Shown: positions 5,806 through 58,442 of the stretch, piece after piece | How the letters are laid out: each line of letters begins with the position of its first letter | Position numbering within the stretch: the stretch's first letter is position 1 | From: Mobula birostris | Lineage: Eukaryota | DNA: 64,000 nt | NCBI RefSeq assembly: GCF_030028105.1 | Contig: NC_092375.1 | Location: 43,933,130 to 43,997,129, forward strand | Reading direction: 5' to 3' | The notes under the pieces: model-generated | Databases searched by the model: none | What the model was told of the DNA's origin: nothing | The model's input: only the letters and a program-made list of their open reading frames with translations | Program-made: the position numbers and the translations under genes

Positions 5806-6049
5806 TGTTGTGCATTTAATATATCAGTAATATTTGAGTAATATTGTAAATATATTGTTTGATTAAGCATTTTTTGTTCATATAAATAATTCATTATATG
5901 TAAAAGTACGTGAATGCCATACGTCATTACGCCACCACACCATAAATACGCACCTCACTGAAAATAAATACAAAGAGTACACATTTGTCCTGGTCTCCCC
6001 GCGTTTTTCTTTAGATTAGTTTTATGTTTTGGAGTTACGAAACATAACA
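5806..6049 (+). mobile_element. ~240 bp solo-LTR-like repeat (second copy inverted at 47916-48150)
   Basis: TGT...ACA termini, internal AATAAA, and clear similarity to the reverse complement of 47916-48150. Confidence 0.55.
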
Positions 6050-15168: not shown

Positions 15169-15749
15169 CTGCACAGAACGGGAGAATTAACACATGGTGA
15201 ATTTTACTGTAACCCAGATGGATACATACAGCAAGAGTGGACACAAGTGAAGACGGTGCACGATATAAAGGTAACACTCTGAACCGAGTTGATTATTTTG
15301 TGTCTCAAAATTCGCACTGGCAGGAAGAGAAACAAAATACAGCCCGAGAATGGAATGAATTTGGAATGTTACAGCGAGTGTAAGTAAAAAAAGATGCTGG
15401 AGATTTAGAATGTTAAAAAAACAGAACCGCTGGAAGTATCCAGCTGGTCTGGTCGAAGAGACGCAGAGTTCTGACGAAAGGTCTTCAATACCAAACGTTA
15501 ACTCTGTTTCTCTCTCCACATTTGCGACCTGACCTGCTGAGTGTTTCCAGCACGTTCTAGCTTTATTTTTCAGTTCTTTTCGACCAGGCACATGTTGGTC
15601 ACAAGATGCAAGTTACGCTGGTAGGATGTTCCAACAAGGATGCTTCACGGTTCCGATTCCCCATTAAAAATCCCTAATTTTACTTCCAAATTTCACCCGT
15701 AGTTGAGAGAAGCAGGTTGTGAGATTTACTCCCTGTGTAAACCACTTAC

Positions 15750-27214: not shown

Positions 27215-28500
27215 TACTCAGTGGTCACTTTATTGGTACAGGAGGTGCCTACTAAAGTGGCCACTGATTGAATGTCCATGGTCTTCTGTTGCTATAGCCC
27301 ATCCACTTCGAAGTTTGACTTGCTGTGTGTTCAGAAATGCTCTTCTGCACACCACTTTTGAGTTATTTGAGTTACTGTCACCTTCCCATCAATTTGAACC
27401 AGTCTGGCCATTCTCCTCTGACCTCCATCACTAGCAAGGCATTTTTGCCTACAGATCTCCCTTCACTGGATGTTTTTTTTAAAAAAATATTTGTTTCTTT
27501 TTTGCACCATTCTCTGTAAACTTTGAACTCTTAAACTCTAAGAGCCTGTGTATAGAAACATAGAAAATAGGTGCAGGAGTAGGCCATTCGGCCCTTCGAG
27601 CCTGCACCGCCATTTATTATGATCATGGCTGATCATCCAACTCAGAACCCCGCCCCAGCCTTCCCTCCATACCCTCTGATCCCCGTAGCCACAAGGGCCA
27701 TATCTAACTCCCTCTGAAATATAGCCAATGAACTGGCCTCAACTGTTTCCTGTGGCAGAGAATTCCACAGATTCACCACTCTCTGTGTGAAGAAGTTTTC
27801 CCTAATCTCGGTCCTAAAAGGCTTCCCCTTTATCCTCAAACTGTGACCCCTTGTTCTGGACTTCCCCAACATCGGGAACAATCTTCCTGCATCTAGCCTG
27901 TCCAATCCCTTTAGGATTTTATACGTTTCAATCAGATCCCCCCTCAATCTTCTAAATTCCAACGAGTACAAGCCCAGTTCATCCAGTCTTTCTTCATATG
28001 AAAGTCCTGCCATCCCAGGAATCAATCTGGTGAACTTTCTTTGTACTCCCTCTATGGCAAGGATGTCTTTCCTCAGATTAGGGGACCAAAACTGCACACA
28101 ATACTCCAGGTGTGGTCTCACCAAGGCCTTGTACAACTGCAGTAGTACCTCCCTGCTCCTGTACTCGAATCCTCTCACTATAAATGCCAGCATACCATTC
28201 GCCTTTTTCACCACCTGCTGTACCTGCATGCCCACTTTCAATGACTGGTGTATAATGATGTGCATGAAAATCCCAGGAGATCAGCAGTTTCTGAGATGTT
28301 CAAAGTATCTCACCTGGCATGAACAATCATTCTATGGACAAAATCACTTAGATCATATTAATTCCCCATTCTGATGTTGGTCTGAGCAACAACTGAACAC
28401 CTTGACCTCGTCTGCATGCTTTTATGCACTGAGTGGCTGCCACAATTGACATTAATGAGCAGGTGTACTGGTGTACCTAACAAACTGGCCACTGAGAGTA
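27215..28500. mobile_element. Tc1/mariner-type non-autonomous element interrupted by a CR1
   Basis: Imperfect TIRs TACTCAGTGGTCACTTTATTGGTAC and GTACCTAACAAACTGGCCACTGAGAGTA, with TA at both ends. Confidence 0.65.
27553..28262 (-). mobile_element. Young 5'-truncated CR1 (RT C-terminus and 3' tail)
   Basis: Open 207-aa frame HQSLKVGMQVQQ..LEYCVQFWSP..LGLYSLEFRR..QRVVNLWNSLP, with tail tttctatgtttcta. Confidence 0.93.
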
Positions 28501-28664
28501 AGCGGCAAGACAAACAGAGACAAGAAATTTGCATCCATACATTCTGATAGAGAGGTTTCCAATCTAATTTGTTTCTATTATCATCTTTTGCTCTGATAAG
28601 TATACAATTTCTCATAGTCTACAAAATGGTCTGCATCCCACAGTGCTTCAGGAAGTAGCCCAAG

Positions 28665-30167
28665 AAATAGTGGATGCATTAGTGATAATTTTTCAAAACT
28701 CTTTAGATTCTGGACTAGTTCCTGAGGATTGGAGGGTGGCTAATGTAACCCCACTTTTTAAAAAAGGAGAGAGAAACCAGGGAATTATAGACCAGTTAGC
28801 CTAACATCGGTGGTGGGGAAAATGCTAGAGTCAGTTATCAGAGATGTGACAACAGCACATTTGGAAAGCGGTGAAATCATCGGACAAAGTCAGCATGGAT
28901 TTGTGAAAGGAAAATCATGTTGACGAATCTCAGAATTTTTTGAGGATGTAACTAGTAGAGTGGATAGGGGAGAACCAGTGGATGTGGTATATATTTGGAT
29001 TTTCGATAGGCTTTTGACAAGGTCCCACACAGGAGATTAGTGTGCAAACTTAAAGCACACGGTATTGGGGGTATGGTATTGATGTGGATAGAGAATTGGT
29101 TGGCAGACGGGAAGCAAAGAGTGGGAATAAACGGGACCTTTTCAGAATGGCAGGCAGTGACTAGTGGGGTACCGCAAGGCTCAGTGCTGGGACCCCAGTT
29201 GTTTACAATATATATTAATGACTTAGACGAGGGAATTAAATGCAGCATCTCCAAGTTTGCGGATGACACAAAGCTGGGCAGCAGTGTTAGCTGTGAGGAG
29301 GATGCAGGGTGACTTGGATAGGTTAGGTGAGTGGGCAAATTCATGGCAGATGCAATTTACTGTGGATAAATGTGAGGTTATCTACTTTGGTGGCAAGAAC
29401 AGGAAAACAGATTATTATCTGAATGGTGGCCGATTAGGAAAAGGGGAGGTGCAACGAGACCTGGGTGTCATTGTACACCAGTCATTGAAAGTGGGCATGC
29501 AGGTACAGCAGGCAGTGAAAAAGGCGAATCGTATGCTGGCATTCATAGCAAGAGGATTAGAGTACAGGAGCAGGGAGGTTCTACTGCAGTTGTACAAGGC
29601 CTTGGTGAGACCACACCTGGAGTATTGTGTGCAGTTTTGGTCCCCTAATCTGAGGAAAGACATTCTTGCCATAGAGGGAGTACAAAGAAGGTTCACCAGA
29701 TTGATTCCTGGGATGGCAGGACTTTCATATGATGAAAGACTGGATCGACTAGGCTTATACTCTCTGGAATTTAAGAGGGGGGATCTGATTGAAATGTATA
29801 AAATTCTAAAGGGATTGGACAGGCTAGATGCAGGGAGATTATTCCCGATGTTGGGGAAGTCCAGAACGAGGGGTCACAGTTTGAGGATAAAGGGGAAGCC
29901 TTTTAGGATCGAGATGAGGAAAAACTTCTTCACACAGAGAGTGGTGAATCTGTGGAATTCTCTGCCACAGGAAACAGTTGAGGCCAGTTCATTGGCTATA
30001 TTTAAGAGGGAGTTAGATATGGCCCTTGTGGCTAAAGGGATCAGGGTGTACGGAGAGGAGGCAGGTACAGGGTTCCGAGTAGGACGATCAGCCATGATCA
30101 TACTGAATGGCGGTGCAGCCTCAAAGGGCCGAATGGCCTACTCCTGCACCTATTTTCTATGTTTCTA
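28665..30167 (+). mobile_element. Young 5'-truncated CR1 (RT domain to 3' tail)
   Basis: [21 protein letters not shown] and a 303-aa C-terminal frame, with tail tttctatgtttcta at 30167. Confidence 0.93.
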
Positions 30168-33100
30168 AAAAAGTAATTTTGTATCTGCAGTTGTGAATGC
30201 CTTGGACCACATCTAATAAACCAATGTATAAAGAACGTCTTGAAATGTGTCTGTCTTCATCTTTACTGACAGAGTGGTAAGCTTGGTCACCTTTCATCAG
30301 ACAACATCTTATTAAACAGGAGGAGGCAGGAGAACACTGGTTTGCGTGGCCAAAGTAGAACCCTGGGTTAAATTTAAAAACAGCTGAGAGTTGAATCAAT
30401 GAATGCACAGTTGAAAGAAGTTATACTTACTATAAATTCTGATGTAAAATTGCTTGATTTACCTACCACACAGGACATGCTGTCTTCACGCTGCTGCCTT
30501 CAGGAAGAAAGTACCTCAGGACTCACATCACCAGGTTCAGGAACAGGTATTACTCCACAACCACCCCTTGACCCAAAGGGAATAACTTCACTTGCCCCAT
30601 CATTGAAACGTTCCCACAACCAATGCCACACTTTCACGACTTTTCATCTCACATTCCCGATATTTATTGCTTTTTGATCATTTTTAAATTATCATTATTA
30701 TTTCTCTCTACCTACATTTGCACAGTTCATTGTCTTTTGCACATTGGTTGAAAGGCCAATTTGGCGCAGTCTTGTTTCTATTATGGTTATTATTCAATGG
30801 ATATTCTGGGTATGCCTGCAAGAAAATGAATCTCAGGGTTGTAAATGTACTTCATTAACAAATTTACTTTCAACTTCAAAGACCAATGTTTAGATTTTAT
30901 ATTATTCTACAGCTGAGTCTTGCTAAAATGTGATTTTCTTGAATTGAGGAAGATGGAATCATCAAGAACCAGGTTGACTTTGTAAGTGATTAGATACGAT
31001 CTAAGAGATAAAAGGTAATTAAACCCTTTTATTTATTGGTTGGAGAAAGCAGCGTTCACTGTTTGTTTTCCATGCAGCATGCCAAATAATTGCAAAGTTC
31101 CCAGCCTGGGTCATTTTTCCCCTTTGGGGTGTGAATCGGAAAATTTTAATCTGAGTAATATTCTGCAGTGATGACCAGTACCCAAAGGGATATCCCTTGT
31201 TACTAAGGAGACAGCTGGATTATTTCCTTCTTCCTAAAACAAGCTAGAATGCTGACATTCTTTAAAATGTAATGGGAGCTTTCTGTAATATGTAAAATAA
31301 TACATTGCTGGTTACTCACCTGGGATATGCTGGAAGTCCAGAATTCCTTGTGATTTATAAAATGCACTGTGACCTGGGAGTCTATTCAGCTCGAATTTAT
31401 ATCGTGACCTAAGAGTTCACGAGTCAAGTTCATCCACTTTGATCAGTAACAAAATCTATTATTACATAGGTATTTTCCTTCTATTTTACTCTCTCTGCAT
31501 CCTGTTGGTTGTGTGTAGAAAATTCTTTAAGTATTCTATAAAAGCCAGATAGCTTGGCTGTAAACAGGCCAGATTGAGTTTATACTTGAGCAGATTCTAG
31601 GTCAGGGATTTCCCTTGTGATGGTGAAAACATTTCATGATCCTGTCATTCATTTAACAACCGGCTCCATGTATCCATGGTGTCAATTATGGACAGCAGCA
31701 GTAGTTCAGGCTCATCCATGGGACGAAATTCGATGGCAATATATTCAGAATGAACTTGAGCATTGCTTGAGAGTCTTCAGGAGTTGAATTACAGATACAA
31801 GAACACAGCTGCAGTCCTTTTCTTCAGGGCTGTTTTCATAGAAACCAATGGCTGGTTCTCTCAATGTCCTTGGATTTTTTCAACCTGTCTTTCACAGCCT
31901 GAATGTCAATCTCAGTGATATGAAATATGGTTTGCAAAGTAAGTTCACTGTATCTTTCCTGCATTGGTGTTCTTTGACATTTTGTTTTAGCTCCAGTTAC
32001 AGTATTCAGTGCCTACTTAACATTGTTCCCTGGTTCTAAGTGTTCACTAAGCTGCTTCTCCCGTGAGGAACATATGTGATTCCATTTCAAAGTGGCTTAT
32101 TGTAACTATCAAATAATGGAGATGATGATCAGATTCTGATGTATTTTTCTTTATTCATTTATATGATGAAGGCATTAGTGACAAAGATCAACGTTTACTG
32201 CAACACTAACTACTTTTGAAAAGGTACTCTTCTAGTTAGGGTTTATGCTGGTAAAAAGAGATTGTAGGCAAGATCATCATCCAGAAAACTGCACAATGGA
32301 TTTATGGGCATTTGTGTATACATGCTCAGTCTACAACATTAAGGATGTACTTATGTACTGCTCTCTAAAGCAAGAAAATCTCAGTGCCTGCTTCAGATAT
32401 TGAACATTCCAGAAACTAGACTTTGCAATGATAATACAGGAGGAATTAAATCATCAGGGTGGTGTGCAACCTGCCTTTTCAAAATTCCCTCTCTTAATAC
32501 ATGAGGGTTTTGCATTTGGACCTGGAGATTTTCATGTAATTGAAGACATTAATCAAAATAACACCTGATCCTTGTATTAATCATTTCACAATCCTATTCA
32601 ATTAATTAATTCAATTATTTTTATTAATCACTTAAATACAGGAAAAGAGGAAAGGAATTAAAATGAAGTAAAATAAAATGCCTCATGTTTGCATCTTTGC
32701 AAATAATTGTAGACTGAACTTTCTTCAGTAATAATCGTAGAAACAGTATACAGCATATAGCTATGGCTATGTACACTTGTACATACCACCAAGCAGTATT
32801 TTTACTTGAAGACCTAACAGTCTTCAGATATACACAAATCACAATACTTGCTTCACAGAGTTGGTTCCAACCCGAAAAATTTACCCCACTTTAGAGACCA
32901 CTCACTGACCATGATTCAAATGAGTGGTCTTCCTGAAAATCTATCACCTCTTCCAGTTTTGTTTTCATCTACCAGAGATATAAAATCACATTGCTCTAAT
33001 TTTGGTTAATTACAGTCACTTATAGTAGGAACACTACAGCACAGAGACATGTCCTTCAGCCTATCTAGACCAGACCAATTTATTCTGTCTAGTCCCATCA

Positions 33101-33463: not shown

Positions 33464-33632
33464 AGAGAGTGGAGAGAAGGGAGGGGCAGACAGGGTGGAG
33501 AGAAGGAAGGGGCAGGCAGGGTGGAGAGGAGGGAGGGGCAGGCAGGGTGGAGAGAAAGGGAGGGGCAGGCAGGGTGGAGAGAAGGGAGGGACAGGCAGGG
33601 TGGAGAGGAGGGAGGGGCAGGCAGGGTGGAGT
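33464..33632. repeat. G-rich minisatellite, ~26-bp unit CAGGGTGGAGAGAAGGGAGGGGCAGG, ~6 copies
   Basis: Direct inspection. Confidence 0.85.
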
Positions 33633-33932
33633 GGAATGTCCATGGTAGGTTGGAGACAAAAGTTGCTCACGTAACAACTAACTTTTTAAAAAGGGCTGTT
33701 GGAGACAAAAAGGAAGTAAGTTGAATCAGTAAGATCCCAGCTGCAGAGAGAAAGGGTAAGTAAGGTTGGCCAGGGTTAAAATCTCTTCCTTTAATGTATC
33801 AAAAGAAGTAGTAACTGGTGGGAGAAATTCAACTTATGATCTGTAGACCACAAGTTCTCTGCATGTTGCTCTTTGCCTGTCTGAAATTCAAGCATCATTA
33901 AAACGGACAAGCTCCAGAGTATGAAGAGTTTA

Positions 33933-34305
33933 CAGTCATCCCTCAGTATCCGCAGGGGACTGGTTCCAGGACCACACTACCCCCCCCCCCCACCCCAGCT
34001 AGCCATCCCTTACTAGCCTTAAACTCCTTCCTCTCACTCACTACACAAGTAGCAAAACAAACTAGACACAGAGTAAACAGTGCACAACTGAGTGCTGGAC
34101 AGAGACTGAGGATCTGTGAAATGGCAGGAGGCTACAGCAGGGTATGCCCACATATCACTTCATTCACGTGGATTCGCATAATGCTCGGTGCGCAGCAAAT
34201 TCAAATTTTGCTTTTTGGAACTTCCTGGAATTTTTTTCGAGTATTTTCAATCCACGGTTGGTTGAGTCCGCGTATGCGGAACCTGTGGATACGGAGGGCC
34301 GAATG
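33933..34305. mobile_element. Tigger-like MITE
   Basis: TA|CAGTCATCCCTCAGTATCCGCAGG ... CCTGTGGATACGGAGGGCCGAATG|TA, i.e. imperfect TIRs with a TA target duplication. Confidence 0.8.
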
Positions 34306-37300
34306 TACTCTGAATCAAGTTTAGGTAAAAGATGGACATTCCTTGTTACATTTCTCCCTTGTTACATTTCCCCCAAATTCAGCCTTAGATACATCCAACC
34401 ACCGAAAGGATTTATTATAGTTAAGAAGCAATAAACTTTGGAAGTTTTGCTGCGAGCGTATGACTGTTTCGAGAAACACATCTTTTCAATTATAAATCTG
34501 ATGGCTTCTCTCCATTATCCACACGGATAAGGTGTTTTCCATCTGAAAATACAAATGGGAACAAAAGTCAACATTTATTCTGCTAATACTGTGTATACAT
34601 CAGCAGGGCTATCATAATGAAATAATCTTAAATTGATTGTAATTCTGTATCTTTTATTTAGCCTTAGATTATTTCATATTCAGGTTTAAAATAAGCATTG
34701 ATCATTCTAAAACACAGTACAACAATTGCACTCAATTTTACACTGTGCACTTCCTCAGTTTTCTGCATTCCTACCAACAAAATCGTTACCTTACCTGAAA
34801 ATTCTCAGTGATGGAAACCACTTGGTTAGTGAAAACCAGAAAACAGTTGTCAGTCATTCTGCATTACTAACAATTTCTAAAGTTTCTCATGATCTACAAC
34901 CAGATAATTGTGCCAAATTTAGTCAATCCATCTCTGCAGTACTGTATTCAAGTGGAATTATTTTCCCAAAATAGGTTCATTTGTATTTACTCAAAGTTCT
35001 ATATATGCTTAATTTAATGTACCAAGTCAAAATGGTGCCAAGCAATGATGTCTGTCAAGTTGTGGCTCAGACTTATTCCTTTGAGGCTAAGGAATGGTTT
35101 TGGGGACATTGAGCAATTACAGGTCAGGTTTGGGTTTCGGGGCATAGATGCCGGGGAGATAAAGGTTAGGGCCTGTAAATGAAGAGTGAGGGCAGGAGTT
35201 GGTGGTCATAGTCCAGGCTGAAGCACTGAGGATGAAGATCAGCTATCCCCATGGTCAAGGACTGTGGTTGGCTGGTCCCAAAGATGTAGGGTTGGTGACC
35301 CTCCCAGGCCGCCAAGCCCTGGGTTCGGAAGTCCATGCGAGTCTGGAGGTCTATGCTCAGAGTTGAACATCCCATGTGATTGGTCAACCCTGGGGTCAAC
35401 ACCAAAGGTCAAAGAGCAAAATCAGCGAGTTCAAAAATTGGGGCGTGAAGGTTGAAGCCCTGAAATTTGAAGCCCCTTGATCAGTGTGTTCGGAAGTTGC
35501 TGGCTCAACATTCGTGAGTCTAGGCTAGGGACTAGGGTTAGAGGCACAATGTCTATGCCTGCTGAGTGTTCGAGGCCAAGGACTGGGGTCAAAGGCTCAG
35601 AGGTGGCCAGTCCTGGGGTTGGAGGGGGGTGTGTGTGTGTGTGTGTGTATTGATAGGTGAGAAAGGGACTTCTCTTGCTGTGTTTTTTTGCTTTGTTGTT
35701 GGTGTTGTTGCTTGGGTTGTTCTGCTGATCATAGTGAACATACTATATTGGTGCCGGAATGTGTGGCAACACTTGTGGGCTGCCCCAACACAACCTTGGG
35801 TCGTGTTGGTTGTTAACACAAACGACAAATTTCATTGTATGCTTCGATGTACATGTGATAAATAAATTAATCTGAATCTGAATGTACTTCTTGTTTCTTG
35901 ATGTTCCTCCTCCAAAACTGTTAGAGCGTGCAACAGTTTAATCTCAGCATGCAAAAAAATCTAGTTTTTAAATTATAATTAGAAATAACAAATAAGCTTT
36001 CTAACTCAATACAAAATAAAAAGAGCAAGTGCCAGAAATGTGCTGCAGATCAGAAAAGTGGAAAAAGGATTAATATATAATTGTGAAGACCCTTTGTTGG
36101 AACTGGAGAAGGGGAGAACACAGTTTGGTGTCAAGGTATGGGATAAGTGACAGAGGGATGAACAGAACAAAGGGAGTATATAGGGTAAGAGGAGCCCAGG
36201 GTAAGATGATTCAATGGGTGCAGTTAGGAAGAGATAACAAAGTCTTCTGCTCAAAATAACCCAATGCATGATTAGGGAGCAACACTTCATCTTCTATCTG
36301 GGCATGTGCCGACTCAAAATTGAATCCTACCACTTTGGGTAACACACTTTATCCATGTAAAATCAGGCCAGGTGGCTCTGGGATATTGGTTCATTTTCTT
36401 TTGTCTGTCCATAAGCCTGACCTAGGCTTGTTCTATTGGATGGCATCTCCTTTGTGTTCTCACATTCCAACGGCTCCCATATTGTAGCTTTTATGCCATT
36501 TTCTTTGTTTTTGTTCCAACCAATACTGGGTAACAGAACACCTTCAATAGCAGCATTATAACCAAATTCCTATGATTATCTAATTGTGAACTTGTAGTGA
36601 TGCTCATTGAAGCTGCACTTATTGCGCTAGCATACCCTCATGATTCACAAGAATGATGTCCTAAAAAATGTTTTCTCTTTAGGTCACGCTAAGAGCTTCA
36701 TAAAGCCTGAACCATAGTTAAATTTACAAAGTGTGCTTCTGTCAATCATGTTCACCCGCCAGAAATGGAAGGCAGCGTCCAGACTGCTATGTGGGAAACT
36801 GGAAAAGAACAAAAACTGAGTGTGTAACAGAGGCATGTTCAGCAATGGTAAAAGCTGGAATACCTGTGAATGAATGAGGATGGTCATTTCGGACAAATCA
36901 AGTTACAACACTGGAAAATGACATTGCAATATTAACCTACAAGTGCAAATTCCAACAGAAAGTCTGGTTACAAATTCCTGATGTAATGCAATGCAATGTA
37001 ACCTGGAAACAATCACTAATATACTCAGCACAAAATTAAATCTATGTTCAATAACACTGTGCTGTTTTTCTAATGATTTACTTGAACTTAAGCCAGCTCT
37101 GCACTGACTTTAAATAACTATTGTAATTAAACATTAATCCAGTTACTTGTGAAATTGTCAAGAATTCTCCCAAAACTATCACTTAATTCTTAATAAGCAT
37201 TATTTAATTTGCCCTTTTCTTAACATTTCAAGCTGGGCTTTAATTTCTGATTTAAAAATCTATGGAATGCAATTTCTAGTGATTGTACTAAAAGGTTATG

Positions 37301-37399
37301 ATTAAATAACACAACATTACTTAAAATATTTCCAGATTTCCTCTATTTTCAGCCTTGCTCAGTTTCTACACTTTTGTTCTTCCTTTGTTTCTCCTTGTA

Positions 37400-38172
37400 C
37401 AATGGGTTCCATTAATTGGGGCACATCACGATCAGTACATTTTAGCCCAATTAACCTGCTGCCCCAATTAGCCGAGGTTTCATGGAAATCATTAAAAAGG
37501 TGTAAAAAACACAAACTGAGTAACAAATTATGTATTTAACTGAAATATGGAACAAATTGGAAGACTACCAATGCTACTACAGTACTATAAAACTCTGTAT
37601 TGGTTCTTAATAGTTATCAACAGAGGAATTCATTCAGTGTATGCAATGAACAAAATCAGTGCGGACACCTACTGCAGATGATGAACTGCCTTCATACAAT
37701 GTTTTTGCTGAATGGATACTCCAAATCTTCATTTGCATTGTAACATTCAAGATGACTGCCCATACCTTCAAATTCTCAGTAGTTCCTAACTTGTTGAAGT
37801 AATGAAATAATTTCATTTTTCACTCCCACCATTTCTTGCTTGACACCTCACTGATCAAAATAGTTCTGAATTGCCTGACTGCTTATTTCTTGACAACTAT
37901 CAGTGACAAAAATCACTGATTTTTGAACACAAACACACAAAACTGATGCTATTTAAAAACAGTTCACCCTTAAGCATGATGTAGCGTCTAACAACCACAC
38001 AAGTGCTAGTTAGAACCTGTTCAGCAAGTCTCCTGTCCTAATTAAGGGGCATGGTGTCACAAATAAACAAAGGGTACCTGGCTATTTTCTCAATTAGTTT
38101 TTGCTCTTAATAGTTGTCCTAAATAAACAGCTGCCCTAGTTAACTGAAAGCCCAATTAACTAGAATCCACTG
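37400..38172 (-). mobile_element. Tigger/pogo-like non-autonomous DNA transposon
   Basis: TA|CAATGGGTTCCATTAATTGGG ... CCCAATTAACTAGAATCCACTG|TA. Internal transposase remnant shared with 11480-11570. Confidence 0.8.
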
Positions 38173-38260
38173 TATAATTTTATAAGATGTACTGATATAC
38201 TTACTGCTTATTATGTTCATTTAACACTTTCAAAAGTAACAATTTTAGAAATAAACCTAC

Positions 38261-38530
38261 CTGAGAATATCACTCGAGTCTGCGTAGGCTTGACCATCCA
38301 TTGATGAGTCATGGAGCAGATATAGTGATTCATCTTATCAATTACTTTCAAATCATTTGTCACGTTGAAATATCCATCACTTTCCCTCAATTTTATTTCA
38401 TTATGCACTGCCAATGCATTCCCAAGCTGGTCCCTCCACGTAACTTCTGGAGCAGGGTACCACCCTGAAGACCGGCATGACAGCACATCTGAATCGGAAT
38501 CCCAGAAAACATGGATGCCATCTGTACTAG
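38261..38530 (-). CDS. B7/butyrophilin-family gene, IgC exon
   Basis: 270 bp, phase 1-1, acceptor ttttatcttggtAG, donor GTAGGT. LSCRSSGWYPAPEVTW..DGYFNVTNDL..YIC is the B7/BTN C-domain signature. Confidence 0.9.
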
Positions 38531-39262
38531 CTACCAAGATAAAAGTAACACAAATTACAGCTAGTCAACAAGAACACAAATCACACAGAAATGCTTCAAT
38601 ACAAAATGTTACAGTTTTTAGAAAAGCAATAACCCTCTGCAAAATTATATATTTAAGATATTCCCTATACTTTGCTGATAATCAAGATCTGTATATTCTG
38701 GAGAAAATAAATATCTATTGGAATGAGTTGAAAGTTACCCAAAATGTGCAACAAAATAAGACAATGGTCTGACTCCTTTCCATTGGCTTACTTTGTTTTC
38801 ATAAACACATTGTTCCGTGAGCATCGTAGGTACATAAAGTTTATAAATAAATAAGATGGCACTTTTTCTACATTGATTCCACATGCATTCTCAGGCAGAT
38901 TTTCTTGATAGAGGAATTAAGTTTAAATAAACTGGGCTGCAATTGAAAATAACCTGCACATCTTAGCTTCCTTCTTATAACAAATGAAGCAAAGACTGAG
39001 CAAGCACCTTCATTGGTGAATAATCCTCCAAACTCTTTTCTTCTGTGCTGTGCTGAAGTGATCCGATGCATTCAGCACACACAGGAAAATAATAATCTTG
39101 CCAAGTAAGTATGCAGATACCAGTTTAGAATAACATTAAGCTATACTTCATCCCTTGTAATAGTTTAAATGAATGAAATTGAGCTTTCAACATTCACCTG
39201 GGCCAACTTGGAAGATTCACTTGTCAGGTCCTACTGAAGAAACTGACCATGAGTTATCAGAA

Positions 39263-39460
39263 AACAACAGGAATTCTGCAGATGCTGGAAATTCAAGCAA
39301 CACACATCAAAGTTGCTGGTGAACGCAGCAGGCCAGGCAGCATCTCTAGGAAGACGTCAGGACGTCCTGACGAAGGGTCTCGGCCTGAAACGTCGACTGC
39401 ACCTCTTCCTAGAGATGCTGCCTGGCCTGCTGCGTTCACCAGCAACTTTGATGTGTGTTG
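39263..39460 (+). mobile_element. Young Penelope-derived ~200-bp insertion with a 58-bp perfect inverted repeat and a 15-bp TSD
   Basis: TSD CATGAGTTATCAGAA at 39248-39262 and 39461-39475. Arms 39297-39354 and 39404-39461 are exact reverse complements. Confidence 0.88.
39364..39397 (+). ncRNA. Minimal type-I hammerhead ribozyme motif
   Basis: GUC CUGACGA AGG GUCUCGG CCU GAAAC GUC GAC. Intact catalytic core, 3-bp helix II, helix I GUC/GAC, GUC cleavage triplet, ACGU palindrome in place of helix III. Confidence 0.65.
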
Positions 39461-40819
39461 CATGAGTTATCAGAAGAGTGTTCGATGTATTTGAGCCAGG
39501 ATCACTCACAAGATGTTCAAGGAACATTTCATCAATTTTTTTTTTAAGACTCCTCGTCAAGTAGCCATACTAAATAGCCAGTTCAAATAGAAATGGAAGT
39601 TATACAATATACAAATCAGTAATAGTCACTAGATGCAGTGCCAGGGAATAGTTGGTGCCATGTGGGTTCCAGTCAAACCAAACAGTGAATTCTGCAATCA
39701 CCATTCCTTCGGGACTAGAGACTAGCAATAGTTGTTCTATAAAAGGCTGTTATGTAATGGTGTTATAAATAAATTTAATAGCTACTGGGCAGAACTCCAT
39801 CTTTGTCGTCACTTCATATCTGATCTGGTACTGCTATAATATTAAATACTGCATTTTCACACCTTTAGCTAGAAGCCTTAGCTATTCGTATATTGTTTAA
39901 CAGTTTTGGTTTTCCATCCATTGCCATCAAACCAAAATATAGTTCTATTTTTACTCATAAAACTATTTCTAAGTGTGTTTTTCTTGTAGAAATGCTACTA
40001 ATGCCAAGGTATCAGGGAAGAGTCATAAGCTTTACAGAATTATGTGATTGTTCTTATACCGTTCAGTCTATGGGGAAATGTTTGTCACTTTATTACCTAA
40101 AGATGATAGGGTGTAATTTCTGCAAAGGTCTCTCCACTTTGCCCTCAGCTGCGGTAGAGAGCCTGGGATTTGGCATATTTACCATCATTGCCCATCAACT
40201 TAATTGAATGAAGAAATGAATGAAAATAACTGAAGACTAGTTTACAGATGGTAAAGACCTCAAGAGGAGGCAGAGAAGAATCATACACGTGCTATTTCAG
40301 AAGATGACCGTAGATGGTTCAGTATTGTCTTTGGTCTTCACAGTTGCCTTCTCATCAAGGATGGTGATATTCATGATGTATGATGTAAAACTACAAAGAC
40401 TTTCACTTATCTCAGAAACAGGCCATTCAGCCCCACTGGTCCATGCTGACCAATATGCTCCCTCCAAGCTAAACCAGTTTTGTCTTTGGTCCATAAACTT
40501 CTAAACCTTTCCAATCTGTGCACCTGTCCAACTGTTTCTGAAGAGATATAACTGTGTTCTATCAAGTGATAACTTAATACTGTCTGTAGCATATGACCTA
40601 GCCCACATTCCTATATTGTATTTTCACCTGATGGATGTTTCCTTTTGAGCTCTACCTAATAATATTCTGGGATGTCCATATACATCACTCACTGAACATA
40701 GGTTGGTCCTTAGGTTAAAATACAATGTTACTGATTCTGATGGAACATAATCCTAGCACTCTGAAAGCTGGCAGTGCTTACAACTGGGCAGATTTGAACT
40801 GTGGTAACACAAACAAGAG

Positions 40820-41035
40820 ACAATCTGCACATGCTGGAAATCCAAGCATCGCACACACAATGCTGGAGGAACTCAGCAGGCCAGGCAGCATCTATGGGAA
40901 AGAGAAAAAAAAGAGTACAGTTGACACTTTGGGCCCAGGACCTTCATCAGGATTGAAGGGTCTGGCCCCAAAACGTCGACTAGGTGCTGCCTGGCCTGCT
41001 GGGTTTCACCAGCATTTTGTGTGTGTTGCTTGAAC
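40820..41035. mobile_element. Penelope-derived inverted-repeat element with two decayed hammerhead cores tail-to-tail
   Basis: Inverted arms cacacaatgctgg..cagcaggccaggcagca and tgctgcctggcctgctg..ccagcattttgtgtg. Cores are mutated (CAAA for GAAA, or missing CUGA). Confidence 0.7.
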
Positions 41036-41816
41036 TGTACTAAGGCTGCCCAATTTAATGTTATAGAACTACGGAACATGCAACATAATTGTATCCTCAA
41101 TCTGAACACAGGGCTTTGTCACCAACAGCTTATAAACTGTATCAGCAACAAATAGACTGGTTAGAGGAAGGTCAGGTGGGTTGCTCACTTGACCTGCAAA
41201 AGATCTAGTAACTATGTCTGTCAGGACTTGATTAGCTCTGTCAGCTATGATGCCACTGCATCAGTCTAGATGATAAGACCCGTAAGATATAGGAGCAGAA
41301 ATAGGACATCAAGTCAGCTCCGCCATTCCATCATAGCACATCCATTTCCCAGTATCCCTTCATGCCCTGACTAATCTATCAACCTCTACCTTGACTATAC
41401 CCAATGATGGCATTGATAAACTCAGGAAAAATGTGTTTTACTGCTACAAGTGATGTTTTTTTTAATTGCCAGAGCCTAACAGCAGAGTGCTGCTACTTTT
41501 TCCAACACTGTGCAATTGAAAATTGATTTAACAAGGAGTAAATTGCATTTGGTACTATTTCCAGGAAAAACCACGCTGACCTTCAACTGATAATTCTGGC
41601 CAAGTCACCCTATTTCAAATTCAGAGACTTGGTTACAATGAGCTTTAATGCAACACAATGCTTTAATATTTTTAGGCTGCTGTCTTCTGTAAAAGGTAGT
41701 GTTAATCAGTAAAACATACCCTTTTATTTCTTGCCACTATTGTCATTACAATTTAAAAAAATGAAACTAAAGTGTATTTCACCCTCACTGAGAGCAGAGC
41801 AAGATATGTGGCATAC

Positions 41817-42158
41817 CCCAAACAGGCAGATGAACAACTGCTTTTCCATATCCACCATCAGTGCTAACAAACAACATGTAATCTCCTTCATCCCAAAGAT
41901 TAACATTCTTCAATGTAAGAAATGCTTTGCCGTTATTGATTGAATTTTCATCAACTTGAATTCTTTTTGAGTAGTTGGCATGCTGGTTGCTGAAATCACT
42001 TTTACTTTCTTTGTACTCATATAAAATTTCAGAGCCAGGATTCTTCTCCCATTTCACTGCTGGAGTACATTGGCCATTGCAATCAAATGAACACTCGAAG
42101 GTGACAGATCCTCCAATTTCTGCAGCTGGTTTCTGCTCACACTCAACTCTGAATGCAC
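41817..42158 (-). CDS. B7/butyrophilin-family gene, IgV exon (atypical, F-strand Cys replaced by Leu)
   Basis: 342 bp, phase 1-1, acceptor ttctatcctttattcAG, donor GTATGC. GAFRVECEQKP..GGSVTFEC..VKW..QHANYSKRI..NGKAFLTLKNVNLWDEGDYMLFV..HLPVW splices in frame to the IgC exon. Confidence 0.9.
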
Positions 42159-43399
42159 CTGAATAAAGGATAGAAATAATGTAGTTATAAACAAAACCTT
42201 CTCGAAAAAAAATTTCAAATGTTCACTTACGTTTCAGCTGACCAGCTTTTCTATTGTTAACACAGGTCTGAAAAAGGTATATTTTTCCACTTACAAATTG
42301 CTTTCAGAAAATTCCTTGCCTGATATTCATCTCACTTTAAGAACTTGGGCAATGGACGAGGATGATCTGCAGAATTTTCCAGTTTCTCCAATTTGATTGA
42401 TTCCATTTATCTTTAAAAAGTTAATTGTATCCATCCAACACCTTCTTGTCTAAATATTAGTCTGTACTTTGCTGGGTTTTAACATTACACTGTTGCACTC
42501 ACATTTATAATTTACAGGATGTTTTCTATGCTACAGAAGAACACTGCTCCCAGCAGATCTAACTTGCACAAAATCATCACTCTGCTTGAACAAAAGTTGG
42601 ATAAGAATTACTACAAAACCTCATGGCATGATTGGAGTCTGATCTGGAAATTCTAGGACTCTACTGACTTTGAGCCTATGTCTTTGTGCTGACAATTTAA
42701 AACTTCACCCAATCAGTTTGTCTGAAAAGGGACCACAAATCCACAGTTTCAATTCACTTGGCTGTCCACATCCTTTCGTTTCATTTCTGTCACAGGCTAT
42801 AATAAAAATCAAACAGGGCAATATTCTGTATTTTCAGTTTGTTAATAACATGGCTTTGCATTGTTGTTATATTTTGCAATTTGTTTTGAGTCATGGCCAG
42901 ATTTCTTGAGGTATAGTAACATTCCCTATGGGTTTGAGAGTTGGATTCAGAAAGGGTTGAAAAATATGCAGTCTAAGAACATAACCTGTTGTCCTATCAG
43001 GTTGGAATGACAATTGACCACTGTTAAAATCCTGATCACTGAATTTTTAGATATTTAGCAATAAAACTAATAATTGTCATGTTAAACTGCTAAGCTTAAC
43101 AACAAGGATCTCTACCACAGCCTCAATATAAATTGACCCAGTTGATTCCATAAGCTGACAATATGGAAAATAAACTGTTTAAGGTAATGTGGTATTATGA
43201 TTACAAACTTAACAGTCTATTAGGTAGAAATAAAAGCACAGATCTCTTAAAACTCCAACTGAAATTTTCACACATTAACAAAATTTGAATGCTTGCCCTG
43301 GGCCTTTCAATACCAGCTTTGGCAGAATTATGTTGTCACTTACTTATTTGCCTCTTTGGCAAAAATTAAAGGTCTTAGAAATGATCTTCAATATTACTG

Positions 43400-44480
43400 T
43401 ATGTGATGATTTTACATCCTCACTGGCCACAGGAGTAATGCCAGGAGATTGGAGTATGACAAATGTTATTCCTTTGTTCAAGGAGAAAGTCATAGGGATG
43501 ACCCTGGGAATTACAGAGCAGTGATTTTACATCAGTGATGGGCAAACTTTTGGAGAGGATTTATAAGCACTTGGAGAAACACAGCCTAATTAGAGATAAT
43601 TAGCATGGTTTTGTGAGGAACAGGTCATGCTATATGAGCTTGATTGACTTGTTTGAGTCAGCAACAAAGCTAATTGTTGAAGTTAGAGCAGTGGATGCAG
43701 TGTATATGGATTTTAGTACGGAATTCAACAAGATTTCCCATGGTAAGTTCATTCAAAAAGTCAGGAGCATGGGATTCAGGGAATCTTGGCTGCATGGATT
43801 TGGAATTGGCTTGTCCACAGAAGGCAGAAGATTGTACATAGAGTGTATCCTGCCTGTAGGTCTGTGACTAATGGTGTTCCACAGGGATCTGATCTGGGAC
43901 CTCTGCTCTTCAATATTTATAAAAATGACTTAGATGTGGAATTGGAACAGCATGTTAATAAGTTGGTGGTATTGTGCATGGTGTAGAAGGCTGTCACAGG
44001 TTACAATGGGAAATTGATACAATGCAAAGCTGGGCTGAGAAGAGGCGGATGAAGTTCAACTTTGGAAGACTGAACTTGAAAGCAAAGTATAAGGTTAATG
44101 GCAGGATTCTTGATCGTGTGGAGGAATAGATAGATCTTGTGATCCATATCCATAGATCCTTCAAAGTTGCCACACAAGTTGATAGGATAGCTGAGGAGGT
44201 CTATGATGTGTTGGCCTTTGTTAGTCAAGGGACTGAGTTTAAGAAGTGATTAGAGGAAAGTCTAAGGGTATGTCTGAGGTGGTTTTTAATTAAACACAAG
44301 AGAATTTTAAGTGCATGGAACGCACTGCCCGGTAGGAGCAGATACATTAGGTATATTTTAGATAGGCATATAGATAAAAGAAAAATGAAGGACAATGTGG
44401 GTGAGAAAGGACAGATTAATCTTGGAATAGGTTAAAACGTCAGCACATCATCATGGGCTAATGGGCCTGTACTGTTCTTT
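43400..44480 (+). mobile_element. Degenerate CR1 RT and 3' end
   Basis: AVDAVYMDFS..FNKISHG and GVPQGSDLGPLLFNIY fragments, with CR1 tail. Confidence 0.8.
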
Positions 44481-48179: not shown

Positions 48180-51100
48180 TTGGCCAAATCAAAGATTCTG
48201 ATGAATTTTAGAGAGACTGAAAATCTGGTTGAGTCACGAGAGCCCTGCTGGCAGCTGATGGAGTATCAACATTTTAGATTACTCCTACCCTTTTTACCTT
48301 ATTGTCTCCTACCAGTGTTTTTTTTGAAACCTTATTATAATACTTTAATACTGCTTTACTATGGCTGGGAAAAGAGCAAAAGCTTCTGCAAAAGAAAGAG
48401 AAACAGAAGACGAATCCCCAGTCACTTTGGAATCAATCAGTGACTTCCTTAAACGGCAAAAATCTGAATTCTCCAAGGAGTTTCAACAGCTTAATGGCAA
48501 ATTGGATACAATCCAACAAACTTTAACTGAGCACGAGAACCAAATTCAGGAAAATACTGCAAAACTGGTGACATTTGAAGAGGATGTTGAAGATACATCT
48601 AACCTCTGCGAAGAGTTATCCTTAACCAATGAAAAAATTATGAAAAGGATTATCAGTCTAGAAAATAGAAACAGGAGAAATAACTTGCGAATTCTAGGTC
48701 TTCAATCAATTGAAGGCACTGACCCTACAAAGTTCTTTGCAAACTTTCTGAAAAAGCTACTCCCTGTTCTACTGACTTCTGAGTTGAAGCTTGATCAAGC
48801 TTTTCACTCGCCGACTTCGAAGCCATTGTCGTCGGCTGCGAGACCCAGGTCGGTCACTCTAAGTTTTCATGAATTTCATAATAAAGACCTTTTAATTCGC
48901 CATACCCGTCGACAAGGAATGATTGACTTCCATGGTTACAAGGTCAGATTTGTGGAAGATTATTCGCCTGAAGTTACGGCTGATCATATGAAATGTAAAG
49001 AAGTTATGTCGGAATTTTATAATAAAGGATTTGCACCTTATGAAGGAGGAGAAGGTGGAGGCGCGACGCAGCTCGCAGCAGCCACTCCGGTGAATGATAT
49101 CTGTGCACAATCCTGATTTGATGGAGACAGACGTGACAGCACCGAGGAACATCCGGTGAAACTACTGAAATGCCTGTTTCACTGCTGTTCGCTGCTACCG
49201 TGTGATCCAGAATCCCCAGAGGGGAAGGCCCCGAGTCCTCGGATTTGCTTGTTGCTCGGCGGCCAGGGCGGGGTTGAAGCACTCGGCAGAGATGGTGCTC
49301 GGTGTCGGAAGGCTGGTTGGAGGCTCGAAGTTTTTGGACGGACTCAGAATTGGCTGCAGTCCGGTGCTTCCAACGCATCAGCAAGTTTGCAGCGCTTGGA
49401 GGCAGGGAGAGTTTCTCCCTTCTACCCTCAGCATGAGATGATGGGGCTATCGGGACTTGAGCCATTTTTTTTTACCATGCCCATGGTCTGCTCTTCATCA
49501 AATTACGGTATTGCTTTGCACTGTTGTAACTATATGTTATAATTATGTTAGTTTTGGTTTGTCCTGTGTTTCTGTGATATCTCTCTGGAGCAACATTGTA
49601 TCATTTTTTAATGCATGCATTTCTAAATGACAATAAACGAGGACTGAGTGTCCTCATAATCTAATCTAATCTAAACCATCCCTTCTGTTTCCCACCCATC
49701 TGAGTATTGATTTGAAGAAAACAGATTGCGAAAAAGAATAAAGTTGGTTGAAAACGCAAAGGAGTTTCTGAAGGATGAAGCCTAAAACTGTTATATTTCT
49801 TATTTGATCAATTTTCTCCTCTGTTAATATGAATTTGAAATAAGGTTTCAATAAGCCTATGTTTTGGTTGTTCGTATATTGTTTTTTGTTGCATTTTTTT
49901 AATACTTTTTTATTATATCCCTTTTTGAGGCTTTATTTTAATACAGCTTTCTTTGAATTTGTTTAAACTAATCCTTTTATATTTCTGAATTCTGAGTTAT
50001 TTTTCTTTGTATGTTGTGTCTTGGTAGGGACATATTTGACCTTGTAGGATCGGAGTTTCTGTCAACAGGATTTTTTGGGGAGGGAACTTAGTTGTTAGCT
50101 CGCTGATTGTCTATTGGTCAGCTTTCTTGCTTTGGGTGGGGGAGGGAGTAGGGCCTATTTCTCTCTGGGAGCTGTGTTGGGTCGGTTATATGACTGCCTC
50201 TTTGACTACCTTACCTTACGGTTTGCTTTCTAGTTTTTATAACTTATGGCCAGATATTTTAATTACATAATGATTTCTATTTAAAATGGTTCAAAATACT
50301 AACTTATTTAGTTTGAATATGAAAGGGCTGAATCATCCCATTAAACAGAACAAAGTGTTTGCTTATATTAAAAAATTAAAAGCACCCATTATTTTCTTAC
50401 AAAAAACACACATACGCAACTGTGATAGCTTACATTTGTTTACTCGGTGGAAGGGTATGCAGTTCCACTCTTCGTTTGATGGAAAATCACGTGAAGTTTT
50501 GATTTTTGTAGATAATAGCTTCCTTTGTTCAGCATACAGTTGTTTTGGATCCTAATGGTCGATTTGTTATTGTATCAGGGAGTTTAGACAGTAAATTGAT
50601 TGTTTGCCAGATTTGTGTACTTACTGTCTTGTGATGGGAGGAGATTTTACCTGCTGGTTAGATCCAGTATTAGATCACTCATCTGTCAAACCAGCCACAC
50701 TTAATAAATCAGCTTTGTTTATCCAACCCTTTCTAACTAAATGTGGTATAGTTGATGTTTGGCATTTTCTTCATCCGACGGACAGGGAGTATTCTTTTTT
50801 CTCTCATGCCCATCATTCTTATACCAGGATTGATTATTTTTTTATTGACAGTCAAATGATTCCATTGGTTCAATCGATCGAAAATAAAGAGATTGCTATT
50901 TCTGACCACTCTCCTGTACTTCTATCTTTAAATCTCCCTGGTTCTATCCCTATGAGTAGATTTTGGCGATTTAATTTAACTCTGCTATCCAATGAGGACT
51001 TTTTAAAACTTATGGAAAATCAAATTACTCTTTTTTTTTGAAGAAAATACTTTGGAAGAGACGTCTTGTCTTATTATATGGGATACTTTTAAAGCATATA

Positions 51101-55740: not shown

Positions 55741-56084
55741 CTTTAAGAAAAAGTAATCTCAAGGTAGTATTTGGTAACATATAGTATGTATCAGTCCTGA
55801 AGAAGGGTCTCGGCCCAAAACATCAATTGTTTACTCTCTTCCACAGATGCCGCCTGACCTGCTAAGTTCCTCCAGCACTTAGTGAGTGTTGCTAGGGTAA
55901 CATATAGGTACTTTGATAACTTCACTTTGACTTTGATCTCTGGAAGGAGATGGACAGTTGATATTTCAGGTCAACACTTGTTATCTGGATCCTTCAATCC
56001 AATGAATGGTCTTGACTCGAAACATCGACTGTCCATTTCCCTGCACAAATACTACCTGATCCACTGTGATCCGGCAGTTTGACC

Positions 56085-57180: not shown

Positions 57181-58442
57181 CTTATGTCTAATAGTAAGTG
57201 TTCCTTATGAAAGCCAGAGCAAAACAATGATTGAAAACTGAGTTGAACATAAGAAACACTAAAAGTGATTCCAACACATTTTCACTTTTAAATCTTACAT
57301 CCTGTATACTAAGCGTTTAGGAATTCTACACATGGGTATTAAGGAGGCCAAAAAACTATTAGAAGAAATTGCTTCTAAACAAAATGTCTTTGCTGCAATT
57401 GGCATTAGATGCTCTCAATTGTCCACAACATGAGATTTCAACCTTTGACTCCGTACATCGAATAACCCGAAGTGCATAATCATATTCTTTATCTAAGTAC
57501 CAAGTGCAGAAAATCTGGCTAGAAAGATTAACATAAATTGCTGCTATTGTGTTTATAAAATATGTGAAGCTCTCAAACTCCTTTACCAAAAAAAAATTCA
57601 AAACGGAGACATTATGTTAACTTTATGTGGAAAACGTTGCTTTTACCACACGTGGGAGAACTGTTCTGGGGACCACATGAAAACATCCAGACAGTAAAGA
57701 AAATGTTCAAAAACTTAATTATACAGTACCAGGGCGATTTGGTTTCACACTGAGGAAAGGCCATTACTACAAAAACTGTATACCAACTTAACGAAAGCCT
57801 CAAAAATATTTTTAAGATTAAGAGTTATCTAAAAATAATTGACTATAAATATCAAGCCATCAAATATTCAAGATCGTCATCCTCCCTAACTAAGATGGGG
57901 GGTTGGGCCAAGGGCCTCCGCCATAATGTACTTCCATACTTTCCACCGCCAAAATCAATGTTCAAACCTTTTAAAATCTCTCACATAAAAGTAGATGTTA
58001 TAAACACTCAGAAGGTCATCGTGGAAAGAGAAAATTAGGGCACATTTCTGGTCGGCAACCTGAAATATTAACTCTGCTACACACATCAAAGTTGCTGGTG
58101 AACGCAGCAGGCCAGGCAGCATCTCTAGGAAGAGGTACAGTCGACGTTTCGGGCCGAGACCCTTCGTTAACTCTGCTTCTCTCTCCATGGATGCGACCTG
58201 ATCTGCTGCGTGTTTCCAATATTTTTCCGATTTGTTACATCTCCGGTATCTGCGGACATTTCTGCTCTTCTATAATCTCTCAACGCCTTGTTAGTACCTA
58301 TTCCCAATAAAGCACGAACAATATATCGCATTATCACGATCAATAATCTTAGTAGACCTCGTAATATTAAATAGATCAAACATGCTTTCAGCTAGAATAA
58401 TAACCTGCAAAATATCCTCAAAAACGTAGAATTTACATGTAC

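What the first reader, a model, noticed from the sequence alone, without database searches (positions are those of the whole stretch)
39248..39475. Young ~200-bp retroelement: hammerhead ribozyme core clamped by a perfect 58-bp hairpin, with a 15-bp TSD
Seen: TSD CATGAGTTATCAGAA, exact inverted arms at 39297-39354 and 39404-39461, and between them GUC-CUGACGA-AGG(GUCUCGG)CCU-GAAAC-GUC-GAC. This is an intact hammerhead core with helix I, helix II and a GUC cleavage site, with helix III reduced to the palindrome ACGU. Established: Penelope-like elements and animal retrozymes carry such minimal type-I hammerheads, which cleave as dimers. Inference: a recently mobile, non-autonomous, ribozyme-bearing element family in this lineage. 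This copy lies in the IgV-IgC intron of the B7-like gene, with the ribozyme antisense to that gene, while the hairpin forms on either strand.
Basis: partly seen in the sequence, partly recalled or inferred. Interest (0 to 1): 0.7.

Follow-up and report, generated by a model that had tools for sequence, protein, structure and literature searches.

The report
Broken Penelope palindrome, not ribozyme family
This 200-base hairpin is two back-to-back copies of the end of a very common Penelope-type jumping gene; a sister copy of the same insertion is 31 bases longer and holds two ribozyme motifs, so the single 'clamped' ribozyme seen here is likely left by a later deletion, and the insert is an ordinary by-product rather than a new mobile family.

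Summary
Both arms are the end (pseudo-LTR) of an autonomous Penelope-like element (PLE); a copy with an open 1,116-codon RT-GIY-YIG frame has ends 98% identical. An arm 18-mer has 76,071 exact hits; this copy's inner joint has 3, all in one multiplied gene locus. A fourth paralog carries the same insertion and TSD with 31 more bases: a perfect palindrome of two hammerheads, head to head. So the 'ribozyme in a loop' is likely a deletion scar. Across the family, 28 of 28 inverted insertions have exactly one 34-nt tail, and 20 of 100 arms begin at the ribozyme's front edge, only 2 at its cut site. This fits two cDNAs primed at both target nicks on uncut RNA. Inverted ends, tail and opposed hammerheads of PLEs are published, and this scan has noted such hairpins many times on other DNA. 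Cleavage is untested; covariation was not found. New member of a known kind.

The parts
39248..39262 (+). Left target-site duplication, 15 bp
   Evidence: Exact repeat of 39461-39475; same TSD in all four paralogous loci. No empty site was found among the 4 matches to the left flank.
39263..39296 (-). 34-nt PLE 'tail', on one arm only; in the full element it follows the 5' pseudo-LTR and leads toward the ORF start
   Evidence: Matches the sequence after the 5' pLTR of L065 and L073; 28 of 28 inverted insertions have exactly one tail.
39297..39354 (-). Left arm: inverted copy of the PLE end, positions +98 to +41 (+1 = first G of helix I)
   Evidence: Exact reverse complement of 39404-39461; with the tail, 97.8-98.9% identical to full-length PLE ends.
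39354..39355 (.). Site of 31 missing bases (+40 to +10 of the left arm, most of the second hammerhead)
   Evidence: The paralog at G000:C7:44.117 Mb (L179) has these 31 bases and is otherwise identical over the 302 aligned columns.
39355..39363 (-). 9-bp remnant of the left arm's hammerhead (+9 to +1); with 39364-39372 it forms an 18-bp palindrome around the head-to-head joint 39363|39364
   Evidence: Sequence; same central joint at 12 of 13 loci examined (one of them the paralog of this insertion), with different TSDs.
39364..39397 (+). Minimal hammerhead motif: helix I GUC 39364-39366, core CUGACGA 39367-39373, unpaired A 39374, helix II 39375-39386, GAAAC 39387-39391, GUC 39392-39394 (predicted cut after 39394), helix I GAC 39395-39397
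   Evidence: Sequence; fits the min-HHR anatomy in PMC4209133; register. Helix I has 3 bp here, 4 in the family (A0-U35 lost at the joint).
39364..39461 (+). Right arm: PLE end +1 to +98, without tail
   Evidence: 98% identical to both pLTRs of L065; its last base is also the first base of the right TSD.
39461..39475 (+). Right target-site duplication, 15 bp
41788..42222 (-). Open frame holding the IgV exon of the host B7/butyrophilin-like gene (context)
   Evidence: Pfam V-set E 9.6e-10.
38220..38564 (-). Open frame holding the IgC exon of the host gene (context)
   Evidence: Pfam C2-set_3 (butyrophilin-like Ig-C) E 2.1e-14.

Best explanation
The insert is a head-to-head pair of the last ~100-130 bases of an abundant Penelope-like retrotransposon, likely written at one staggered cut by two short cDNAs, and it likely lost 31 bases from one arm afterwards, which left one hammerhead motif looking as if clamped in a loop. 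Shown: the arms and tail are the end of an RT/GIY-YIG element; a paralog holds the full palindrome; the joint is not shared with other insertions. Inferred mechanism: the element's protein nicks both target strands about 15 bp apart (TSD); each nick primes reverse transcription on uncut element RNA, one at the tail site (+133) and one at the arm end (+98); both cDNAs stop at the front edge of the hammerhead (+1), most likely because the template RNA begins there (about 55%; a splice boundary or a stall are the rivals); the two ends are joined into a perfect 196-bp palindrome; a central deletion then broke the symmetry (about 75% for this direction). The hammerhead is a passenger from the parent's pseudo-LTR. 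In this copy it is antisense to the host gene and predicted to misfold, so it is probably inactive.
For: Parent element: L065 has pLTR-ORF-pLTR with an open 1,116-codon frame, DKG and YIDD motifs, a CX4CXXC linker and a GIY-YIG domain; its ends are 98% identical to both arms (Pfam RVT_1 E 2.9e-5, GIY-YIG E 1.1e-3, both under curated cut-offs). 11 of 12 RT-bearing loci examined end in this arm at 96-100%; 3 of those 12 have the same inverted end around a long ORF piece. Abundance: 76,071 and 38,637 exact hits, reversed-pattern controls 0. Joint unique: 3 hits, one multiplied locus. Paralog with 31 more bases, same TSD and flanks, perfect 98-bp arms. The full +1|+1 palindrome recurs at 12 of 13 loci examined on five arm haplotypes with different TSDs. 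Unselected sample of the first 100 arm hits on contig C1: 3' ends 47 at arm end, 48 at tail end; 28 of 28 inverted insertions have one tail; 27 of 28 have a TSD of 7-18 bp. The tailed arm is longer in 14 and shorter in 14 of 28, whereas fold-back of one cDNA needs the tailed arm longer. Arms of one insertion agree at 76 of 93 subfamily sites, against 57% when shuffled. 5' ends: 20 of 100 at -6..+6, 2 at -19..-7 (p 1e-4), 2 at the cut site +29..+35. In vitro, an anole PLE nicks and extends both strands, starts at two sites that bound the tail, and uses uncut RNA (PMC11167929).
Against: Direction of the 31-bp difference is not proven: the intact paralog L179 is closest to a deleted one (2 substitutions in 3.4 kb to L180; 14-29 between the other pairs), so repair of L179 from its own right arm, or an assembly error at a perfect palindrome, is possible. 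Two pairs of longer inverted insertions share an inner joint but have different TSDs, so some inverted copies may be re-copied as units. Arm concordance is 82%, not 100%. Later deletions, like the one here, could shorten tailed arms and blur the 14:14 test (6 cases exceed 50 nt). The 100-arm sample comes from the first 4.4 Mb of one contig and includes 4 arms from one old local duplication. The cited in vitro work is on a Poseidon-clade element and does not show inverted products.
Confidence: 0.88

Rival explanations
1. A non-autonomous ~200-bp retroelement family (retrozyme-like) that copies itself as a hairpin with one clamped, cleaving hammerhead.
For: True TSD; 40 scored look-alikes among 684 candidates; one joint type has 45 exact hits; the full palindrome recurs; two pairs of inverted insertions share joints.
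Against: This joint: 3 hits, one insertion. The 45-hit joint sits on at least four arm haplotypes with the tail on either arm, and 8 of the 30 fetched are one C17 duplication family. 5' ends form a continuum into the ORF. No tandem unit, which animal retrozymes require by the definition in bioRxiv 10.64898/2026.07.22.740005. Only 2 of 100 arms start at the cut site.
Confidence: 0.05
2. Same PLE origin, but the palindrome arose by one cDNA folding back on itself (self-priming, as proposed in PMC3846280) rather than from two primed cDNAs.
For: Perfect symmetry at the joint; arms share subfamily variants; palindromic inverted joints were read as self-priming in Adineta PLEs.
Against: Fold-back of a sense-templated cDNA requires the tailed arm to be the longer one; it is the shorter in 14 of 28. 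17 of 93 subfamily sites differ between arms.
Confidence: 0.2
3. The deleted form was the original insert and the long paralog was restored later by copying from its own right arm, or one of the two forms is an assembly artefact.
For: 3 of 4 paralogs are deleted, and the intact one groups with a deleted one near the insert.
Against: The 9-bp remnant shows the left arm once reached +1; the full form is common elsewhere and the deleted form unique; the paralogs show mosaic allele sharing, so the local tree is unreliable.
Confidence: 0.22
4. The hairpin was kept for a function in the B7-like pre-mRNA (dsRNA, A-to-I editing, antisense ribozyme control).
For: Intronic position; a 58-bp perfect stem forms on either strand; insert unchanged in 4 paralogs.
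Against: The flanks are just as unchanged (99.1-99.6% identity over 3-10 kb), so youth explains it; 16 of about 83 sampled insertions are similar short hairpins; the ribozyme strand is not the gene's strand.
Confidence: 0.04

Closest known systems
Endonuclease-bearing PLE insertions with an inverted 5'-truncated pLTR and a one-sided 30-40-bp tail (Craig et al. 2021, PMC8557442; Adineta Pen2/Pen2a, Arkhipova et al. 2013, PMC3846280; passages read)
   Same: Head-to-head inverted pLTRs, tail on one side, TSD, palindrome at the inverted joint (an 18-bp one is described for Pen2).
   Different: Here both arms are cut down to the hammerhead's front edge, so no ORF lies between them, and one arm then lacks 31 bp.
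[quoted passage not shown]
   Same: No helix III beyond a palindromic core, unpaired base between positions 9 and 10.1, short helix I, many dispersed single copies, and pairs on opposite strands 100-700 bp apart; in D. virilis an intron ends at the 5' end of helix I, as the splice-acceptor-like sequence does here.
   Different: Helix II is 4 bp and position 11.1 is mostly U (71 of 92 arms), giving G10.1-U11.1 instead of the conserved G-C; helix I is 3 bp in this copy.
Poseidon element PAc of Anolis (Frangieh et al. 2024, PMC11167929; main text read)
   Same: Two RT start sites that bound the tail, both strands nicked and extended, uncut RNA used, no reads ending at the cut site; matches the +98/+133 ends and the lack of 5' ends at the cut here.
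   Different: Other clade; there the ORF starts inside the hammerhead, here the first ATG lies about 170 nt downstream of it; inverted products were not examined there.
Neptune/Nematis-type PLE (linker Zn-finger-like motif, PMC8557442)
   Same: Single ORF, RT then CX4CXXC linker then GIY-YIG.
   Different: Neptune versus Nematis was not separated by a tree.
Animal non-LTR retrozymes (bioRxiv 10.64898/2026.07.22.740005, parts 1-2 of 5 read)
   Same: Non-coding, type-I hammerhead, PLE-derived.
   Different: Retrozymes are head-to-tail tandem units; this is a head-to-head pair with a tail and a TSD, and its joint is not propagated.

Membership tests
EN+ Penelope-like element (insertion derived from) | Sequence belongs to the pLTR of an element with one RT + C-terminal GIY-YIG ORF | tested here: met
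   L065: 1,116-codon frame between two pLTRs 98% identical to the arms; Pfam RVT_1 and GIY-YIG hits below curated cut-offs.
EN+ Penelope-like element (insertion derived from) | Partial-tandem pLTR organisation | tested here: met
   486-bp and 421-bp direct repeats at 97% flank the ORF in L173 and L174.
EN+ Penelope-like element (insertion derived from) | Inverted 5'-truncated copy and one-sided 30-40-bp tail | tested here: met
   34-nt tail here; 28 of 28 inverted insertions with one tail.
EN+ Penelope-like element (insertion derived from) | Variable 5' truncation and variable-length TSD | tested here: met
   5' ends +63 to -2897 in 100 arms; TSD 7-18 bp in 27 of 28 inverted insertions.
Neptune clade | CX2-5CXXC linker between RT and endonuclease | tested here: met
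   CKRNRCYTC in L065; shared with Nematis per PMC8557442.
Neptune clade | RT phylogeny places it in Neptune | not tested
   No reference PLE proteins were fetched.
PLE minimal hammerhead | Core CUGANGA...GAAA...UH with palindromic positions 15.2-16.2 and an extra base after position 9 | tested here: met
   Sequence; core intact in 59 of 72 arms that span it.
PLE minimal hammerhead | Helices I and II supported by compensatory changes | tested here: inconclusive
   26 copies: 76% and 89% of cells paired, 0 pairs changed on both sides, score not above shuffles; copies are closely related and decaying.
PLE minimal hammerhead | Self-cleavage as dimer or with protein | not testable with these tools
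   Fold predictions disfavour the active fold: 9.8 kcal/mol in this copy, 7.8 in the parent pLTR; double-hammerhead -9.1 versus -27.9 for the best dimer; the program ignores tertiary contacts and protein.
Rfam hammerhead families | Match to a covariance model | tested here: not met
   No hammerhead model at gathering score or at E<=10.
Animal non-LTR retrozyme | Head-to-tail tandem units, each with a hammerhead | tested here: not met
   Head-to-head pair; no direct repeat other than the TSD and chance 12-13-mers in 38500-40300.
Animal non-LTR retrozyme | Circular RNA from cleavage and ligation | not testable with these tools
   No run on record as RNA was listed.
Non-autonomous family with fixed structure (SINE/MITE-like) | Same internal structure at many independent sites | tested here: not met
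   This joint: 3 hits, one insertion.

The most novel reading that the evidence does not exclude
The short head-to-head stubs of this family are a genomic record of the PLE reaction: each is made by two cDNAs primed at the two target nicks from the two tail-bounding start sites, and both run off a template whose 5' end lies at the first base of the uncut hammerhead. The motif would then mark the start of the RNA and serve as a protein-binding or pairing site rather than as scissors, and about 10^4 such stubs would let PLE integration be mapped base by base; this locus adds a paralog pair that catches one palindrome before and after its collapse.
Probability: 0.45. Interest if true: 0.5.

Novelty: new member of a known kind. 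Interest (0 to 1): 0.3.

Why it matters
As a single insert it is ordinary. Its value is twofold. It shows that a 'ribozyme clamped in a hairpin' can be an accident of a deletion in a retrotransposon palindrome, a warning for motif scans. And the family statistics (one tail per inverted insertion, no length bias between arms, 5' ends at the ribozyme's front edge and not at its cut site) bear on an open question named in PMC8557442 and PMC11167929: how PLEs form inverted ends and what their hammerheads do. These give direct predictions for an in vitro system that already exists.

Tried and rejected
Rfam: no hammerhead hit; the miRNA-precursor hits at E 1e-9 to 1e-6 are far below gathering score and reflect the long stem. 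Covariation on 26 copies: nothing above shuffles. Ribozyme cleavage as the source of the short copies: 2 of 100 arms start within 3 nt of the cut, no excess over neighbouring bins; rare joints at the cut, which earlier scan notes report, were not searched for here. Empty site: none among 4 flank matches. Expression: no RNA holder listed; four contig sets of uncertain kind and species laid on the parent's 5' pLTR showed no GT-AG joint among the 15 joints displayed (25 more not shown) and cannot show RNA starts. Look-up of earlier findings by sequence returned nothing. Supplement search of PMC11167929 for 'inverted' and 'tail' found nothing in 3 text files. The palindrome review PMC7999016 (passages) supports instability of palindromes but gave no passage on central deletions; that link is from my own knowledge. 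Six literature searches (listings only, except the papers named) showed no paper on this family or on 5' ends piling up at the hammerhead edge; Repbase/Dfam entries, subscription papers and the supplementary figures of PMC4209133 were not seen and may cover it.

Full report
Observation. The sequence is as described. The 15-bp repeat is exact at 39248-39262 and 39461-39475, the arms 39297-39354 and 39404-39461 are exact reverse complements, and the fold is far beyond chance (z -20). The motif between them has the core of a minimal hammerhead but matches no Rfam hammerhead model. The insert lies between a V-set exon and a butyrophilin-like Ig-C exon on the minus strand, so the motif is antisense to that gene. 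Two features were missed: a 34-nt extension on the left only (39263-39296) and an 18-bp palindrome at the centre (39355-39372). Below, +1 is the first G of helix I (39364).

The parent element. The window is G000:C7:43933130-43997129 of a 4.0-Gb genome. A 25-mer over the hammerhead has 38,637 exact hits and an 18-mer of the arm 76,071, with 0 for reversed controls. In the first 30 hits of the 25-mer the sequence shared upstream ran from 3 to at least 1,500 bases. Following the longest gave RT and GIY-YIG coding sequence. A search with 500 residues of it had 79,163 first-look candidates, 86 scored at 95-100% identity. Of 12 such loci examined, 11 end in our arm at 96-100% and one in an older version; L065 has an open 1,116-codon frame between two pseudo-LTRs that are 98% identical to the window's arms, and the 34-nt extension is the sequence that follows its 5' pseudo-LTR. 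[quoted passage not shown] This is a PLE of the Neptune/Nematis type as defined in PMC8557442 (passages); the two clades were not separated. That the host is a cartilaginous fish is my recall of similar repeats and comes from no call.

Not a family of its own. A 20-mer across this copy's inner joint has 3 hits in the genome, all in copies of one gene locus that are 99.1-99.6% identical over 3-10 kb. The commonest joint among the best look-alikes has 45 hits; the 30 fetched carry at least four arm haplotypes with the tail on either arm, which points to repeated formation.

The decisive paralog. A search with the left flank found a fourth copy of the locus (L179, C7:44.117 Mb). It has the same TSD and flanks and differs over 302 columns only by 31 extra bases in the left arm. 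With them the insert is a perfect palindrome with 98-bp arms: two complete hammerheads joined head to head at +1. The same central joint occurs at 12 of 13 loci examined from a search with that centre (one being L179 itself; 303 candidates, 40 scored), with different TSDs and five arm haplotypes. I read the gap as a later deletion (about 75%). Against this, L179 is nearest to a deleted paralog (2 substitutions in 3.4 kb), so self-repair or an assembly error is not excluded.

Family anatomy. I mapped the first 100 arm hits on contig C1, unselected for their 5' ends; no rows were dropped. 3' ends fall at the arm end (47) or the tail end (48). All 28 inverted insertions have exactly one tail, and 27 have a TSD of 7-18 bp. 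The tailed arm is the longer in 14 and the shorter in 14; fold-back of one cDNA would need it longer. The two arms agree at 76 of 93 subfamily sites against 57% for shuffled pairs, and short arms pair with short arms (16 both short, 8 both long, 4 mixed; p 4e-4). 5' ends range from +63 to -2897 but 20 lie at -6..+6, against 2 at -19..-7 and 2 at the predicted cut (+29..+35); among 55 single arms the counts are 9 and 0. Sixteen of about 83 insertions are short hairpins like ours; scaled to the genome this is of the order of 10^4 (inference from one 4.4-Mb stretch).

Mechanism. Frangieh et al. (PMC11167929, main text read) show that a PLE protein nicks and extends both strands, starts at two internal sites that bound the tail, uses uncut RNA, and that its hammerhead cleaves only with protein. 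Applied here (inference): two nicks 15 bp apart each prime a cDNA, one from +133 and one from +98; both stop at +1 and are joined. Why they stop there is open. I favour the template's 5' end (about 55%): single arms abut their TSD with no foreign exon. But a branch-point-like heptamer, a pyrimidine run and AG sit directly before helix I in the young family, and a pyrimidine run plus AG in older ones, as the intron end does in D. virilis Penelope (PMC4209133; PMC2377424 passages), so a splice boundary or a stall remains possible. Public runs did not help.

The ribozyme. It fits the published minimal hammerhead of PLEs, including the unpaired base before helix II and opposed pairs 100-700 bp apart (PMC4209133). 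The family register of helix II is G12-Y23 to U15-R20. The core is intact in 59 of 72 arms that span it. No compensatory double change was seen in 26 copies. In this copy helix I has lost a pair, the 9-bp remnant sequesters the core's 5' half, and the hammerhead fold is predicted to cost 9.8 kcal/mol; the parent pLTR also disfavours it (7.8), so this says little about the parent with protein. Activity is untested.

Age. The copy has no private change in 190 aligned positions; the family mean is 2.6% and 20 of 100 arms have none. It is shared by four paralogs, so it predates their multiplication or was spread among them.

Comparison and verdict. Inverted pseudo-LTRs, one-sided tails and joint palindromes are described for PLEs (PMC8557442; PMC3846280 passages). 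Animal retrozymes are tandem (bioRxiv 10.64898/2026.07.22.740005, parts 1-2 of 5), which this is not. Earlier notes of this scan reach the same reading on other DNA: 485 findings hold the search words and 183 fit in this genome; I had stated my reading before looking, and they are not independent support. Some of them report joints at the cut site, which my sample does not show. What this locus adds is the paralog pair. New member of a known kind; interest 0.3.

Noticed in passing
L159 (G000:C1:3.940 Mb) and L165 (C1:4.096 Mb); L160 (C1:3.954 Mb) and L171 (C1:4.345 Mb): Two pairs of longer inverted PLE insertions share the same inner joint but have different TSDs; in the first pair the tail is on opposite arms and the joint 20-mer has only these 2 hits in the genome. 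Local re-copying of an inverted copy or ectopic conversion; unexplained.
   Followed up: partly
G000:C7:43.97, 44.04, 44.12, 44.18 Mb (window 33471-43790 and paralogs): The B7/butyrophilin-like locus is present in four near-identical copies about 66-77 kb apart with mosaic allele sharing; two differ by only 2 substitutions in 3.4 kb and could be alleles assembled in tandem.
   Followed up: partly
L031-L060, positions -22 to +1 before the hammerhead: Branch-point-like heptamer, pyrimidine run and AG directly before helix I; older families have a pyrimidine run and AG at the same place. A likely splice acceptor, as in D. virilis Penelope.
   Followed up: partly
window 7339-7455, 15463-15507, 40812-41034, 55794-55891, 56004-56031, 58076-58167: Further, mostly older PLE ends with hammerhead remnants; 40812-41034 is a second head-to-head hairpin in the same intron.
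   Followed up: partly
L065 ORF (L173 sense 5981-6401): The PLE ORF holds an internal 213-bp tandem duplication (94% identical) coding a Pro/Ser-rich stretch before the RT.
   Followed up: no
L018, L022, L029, L030, L128-L135 (contig C17): One hairpin insertion sits inside an older PLE end and was multiplied with its flanks at 11 or more places on C17.
   Followed up: no
window 27642-30168 and 48349-51501: Fragments that look like CR1-type and L1/Tx1-type LINE coding sequence by eye; labels recalled, not tested.
   Followed up: no
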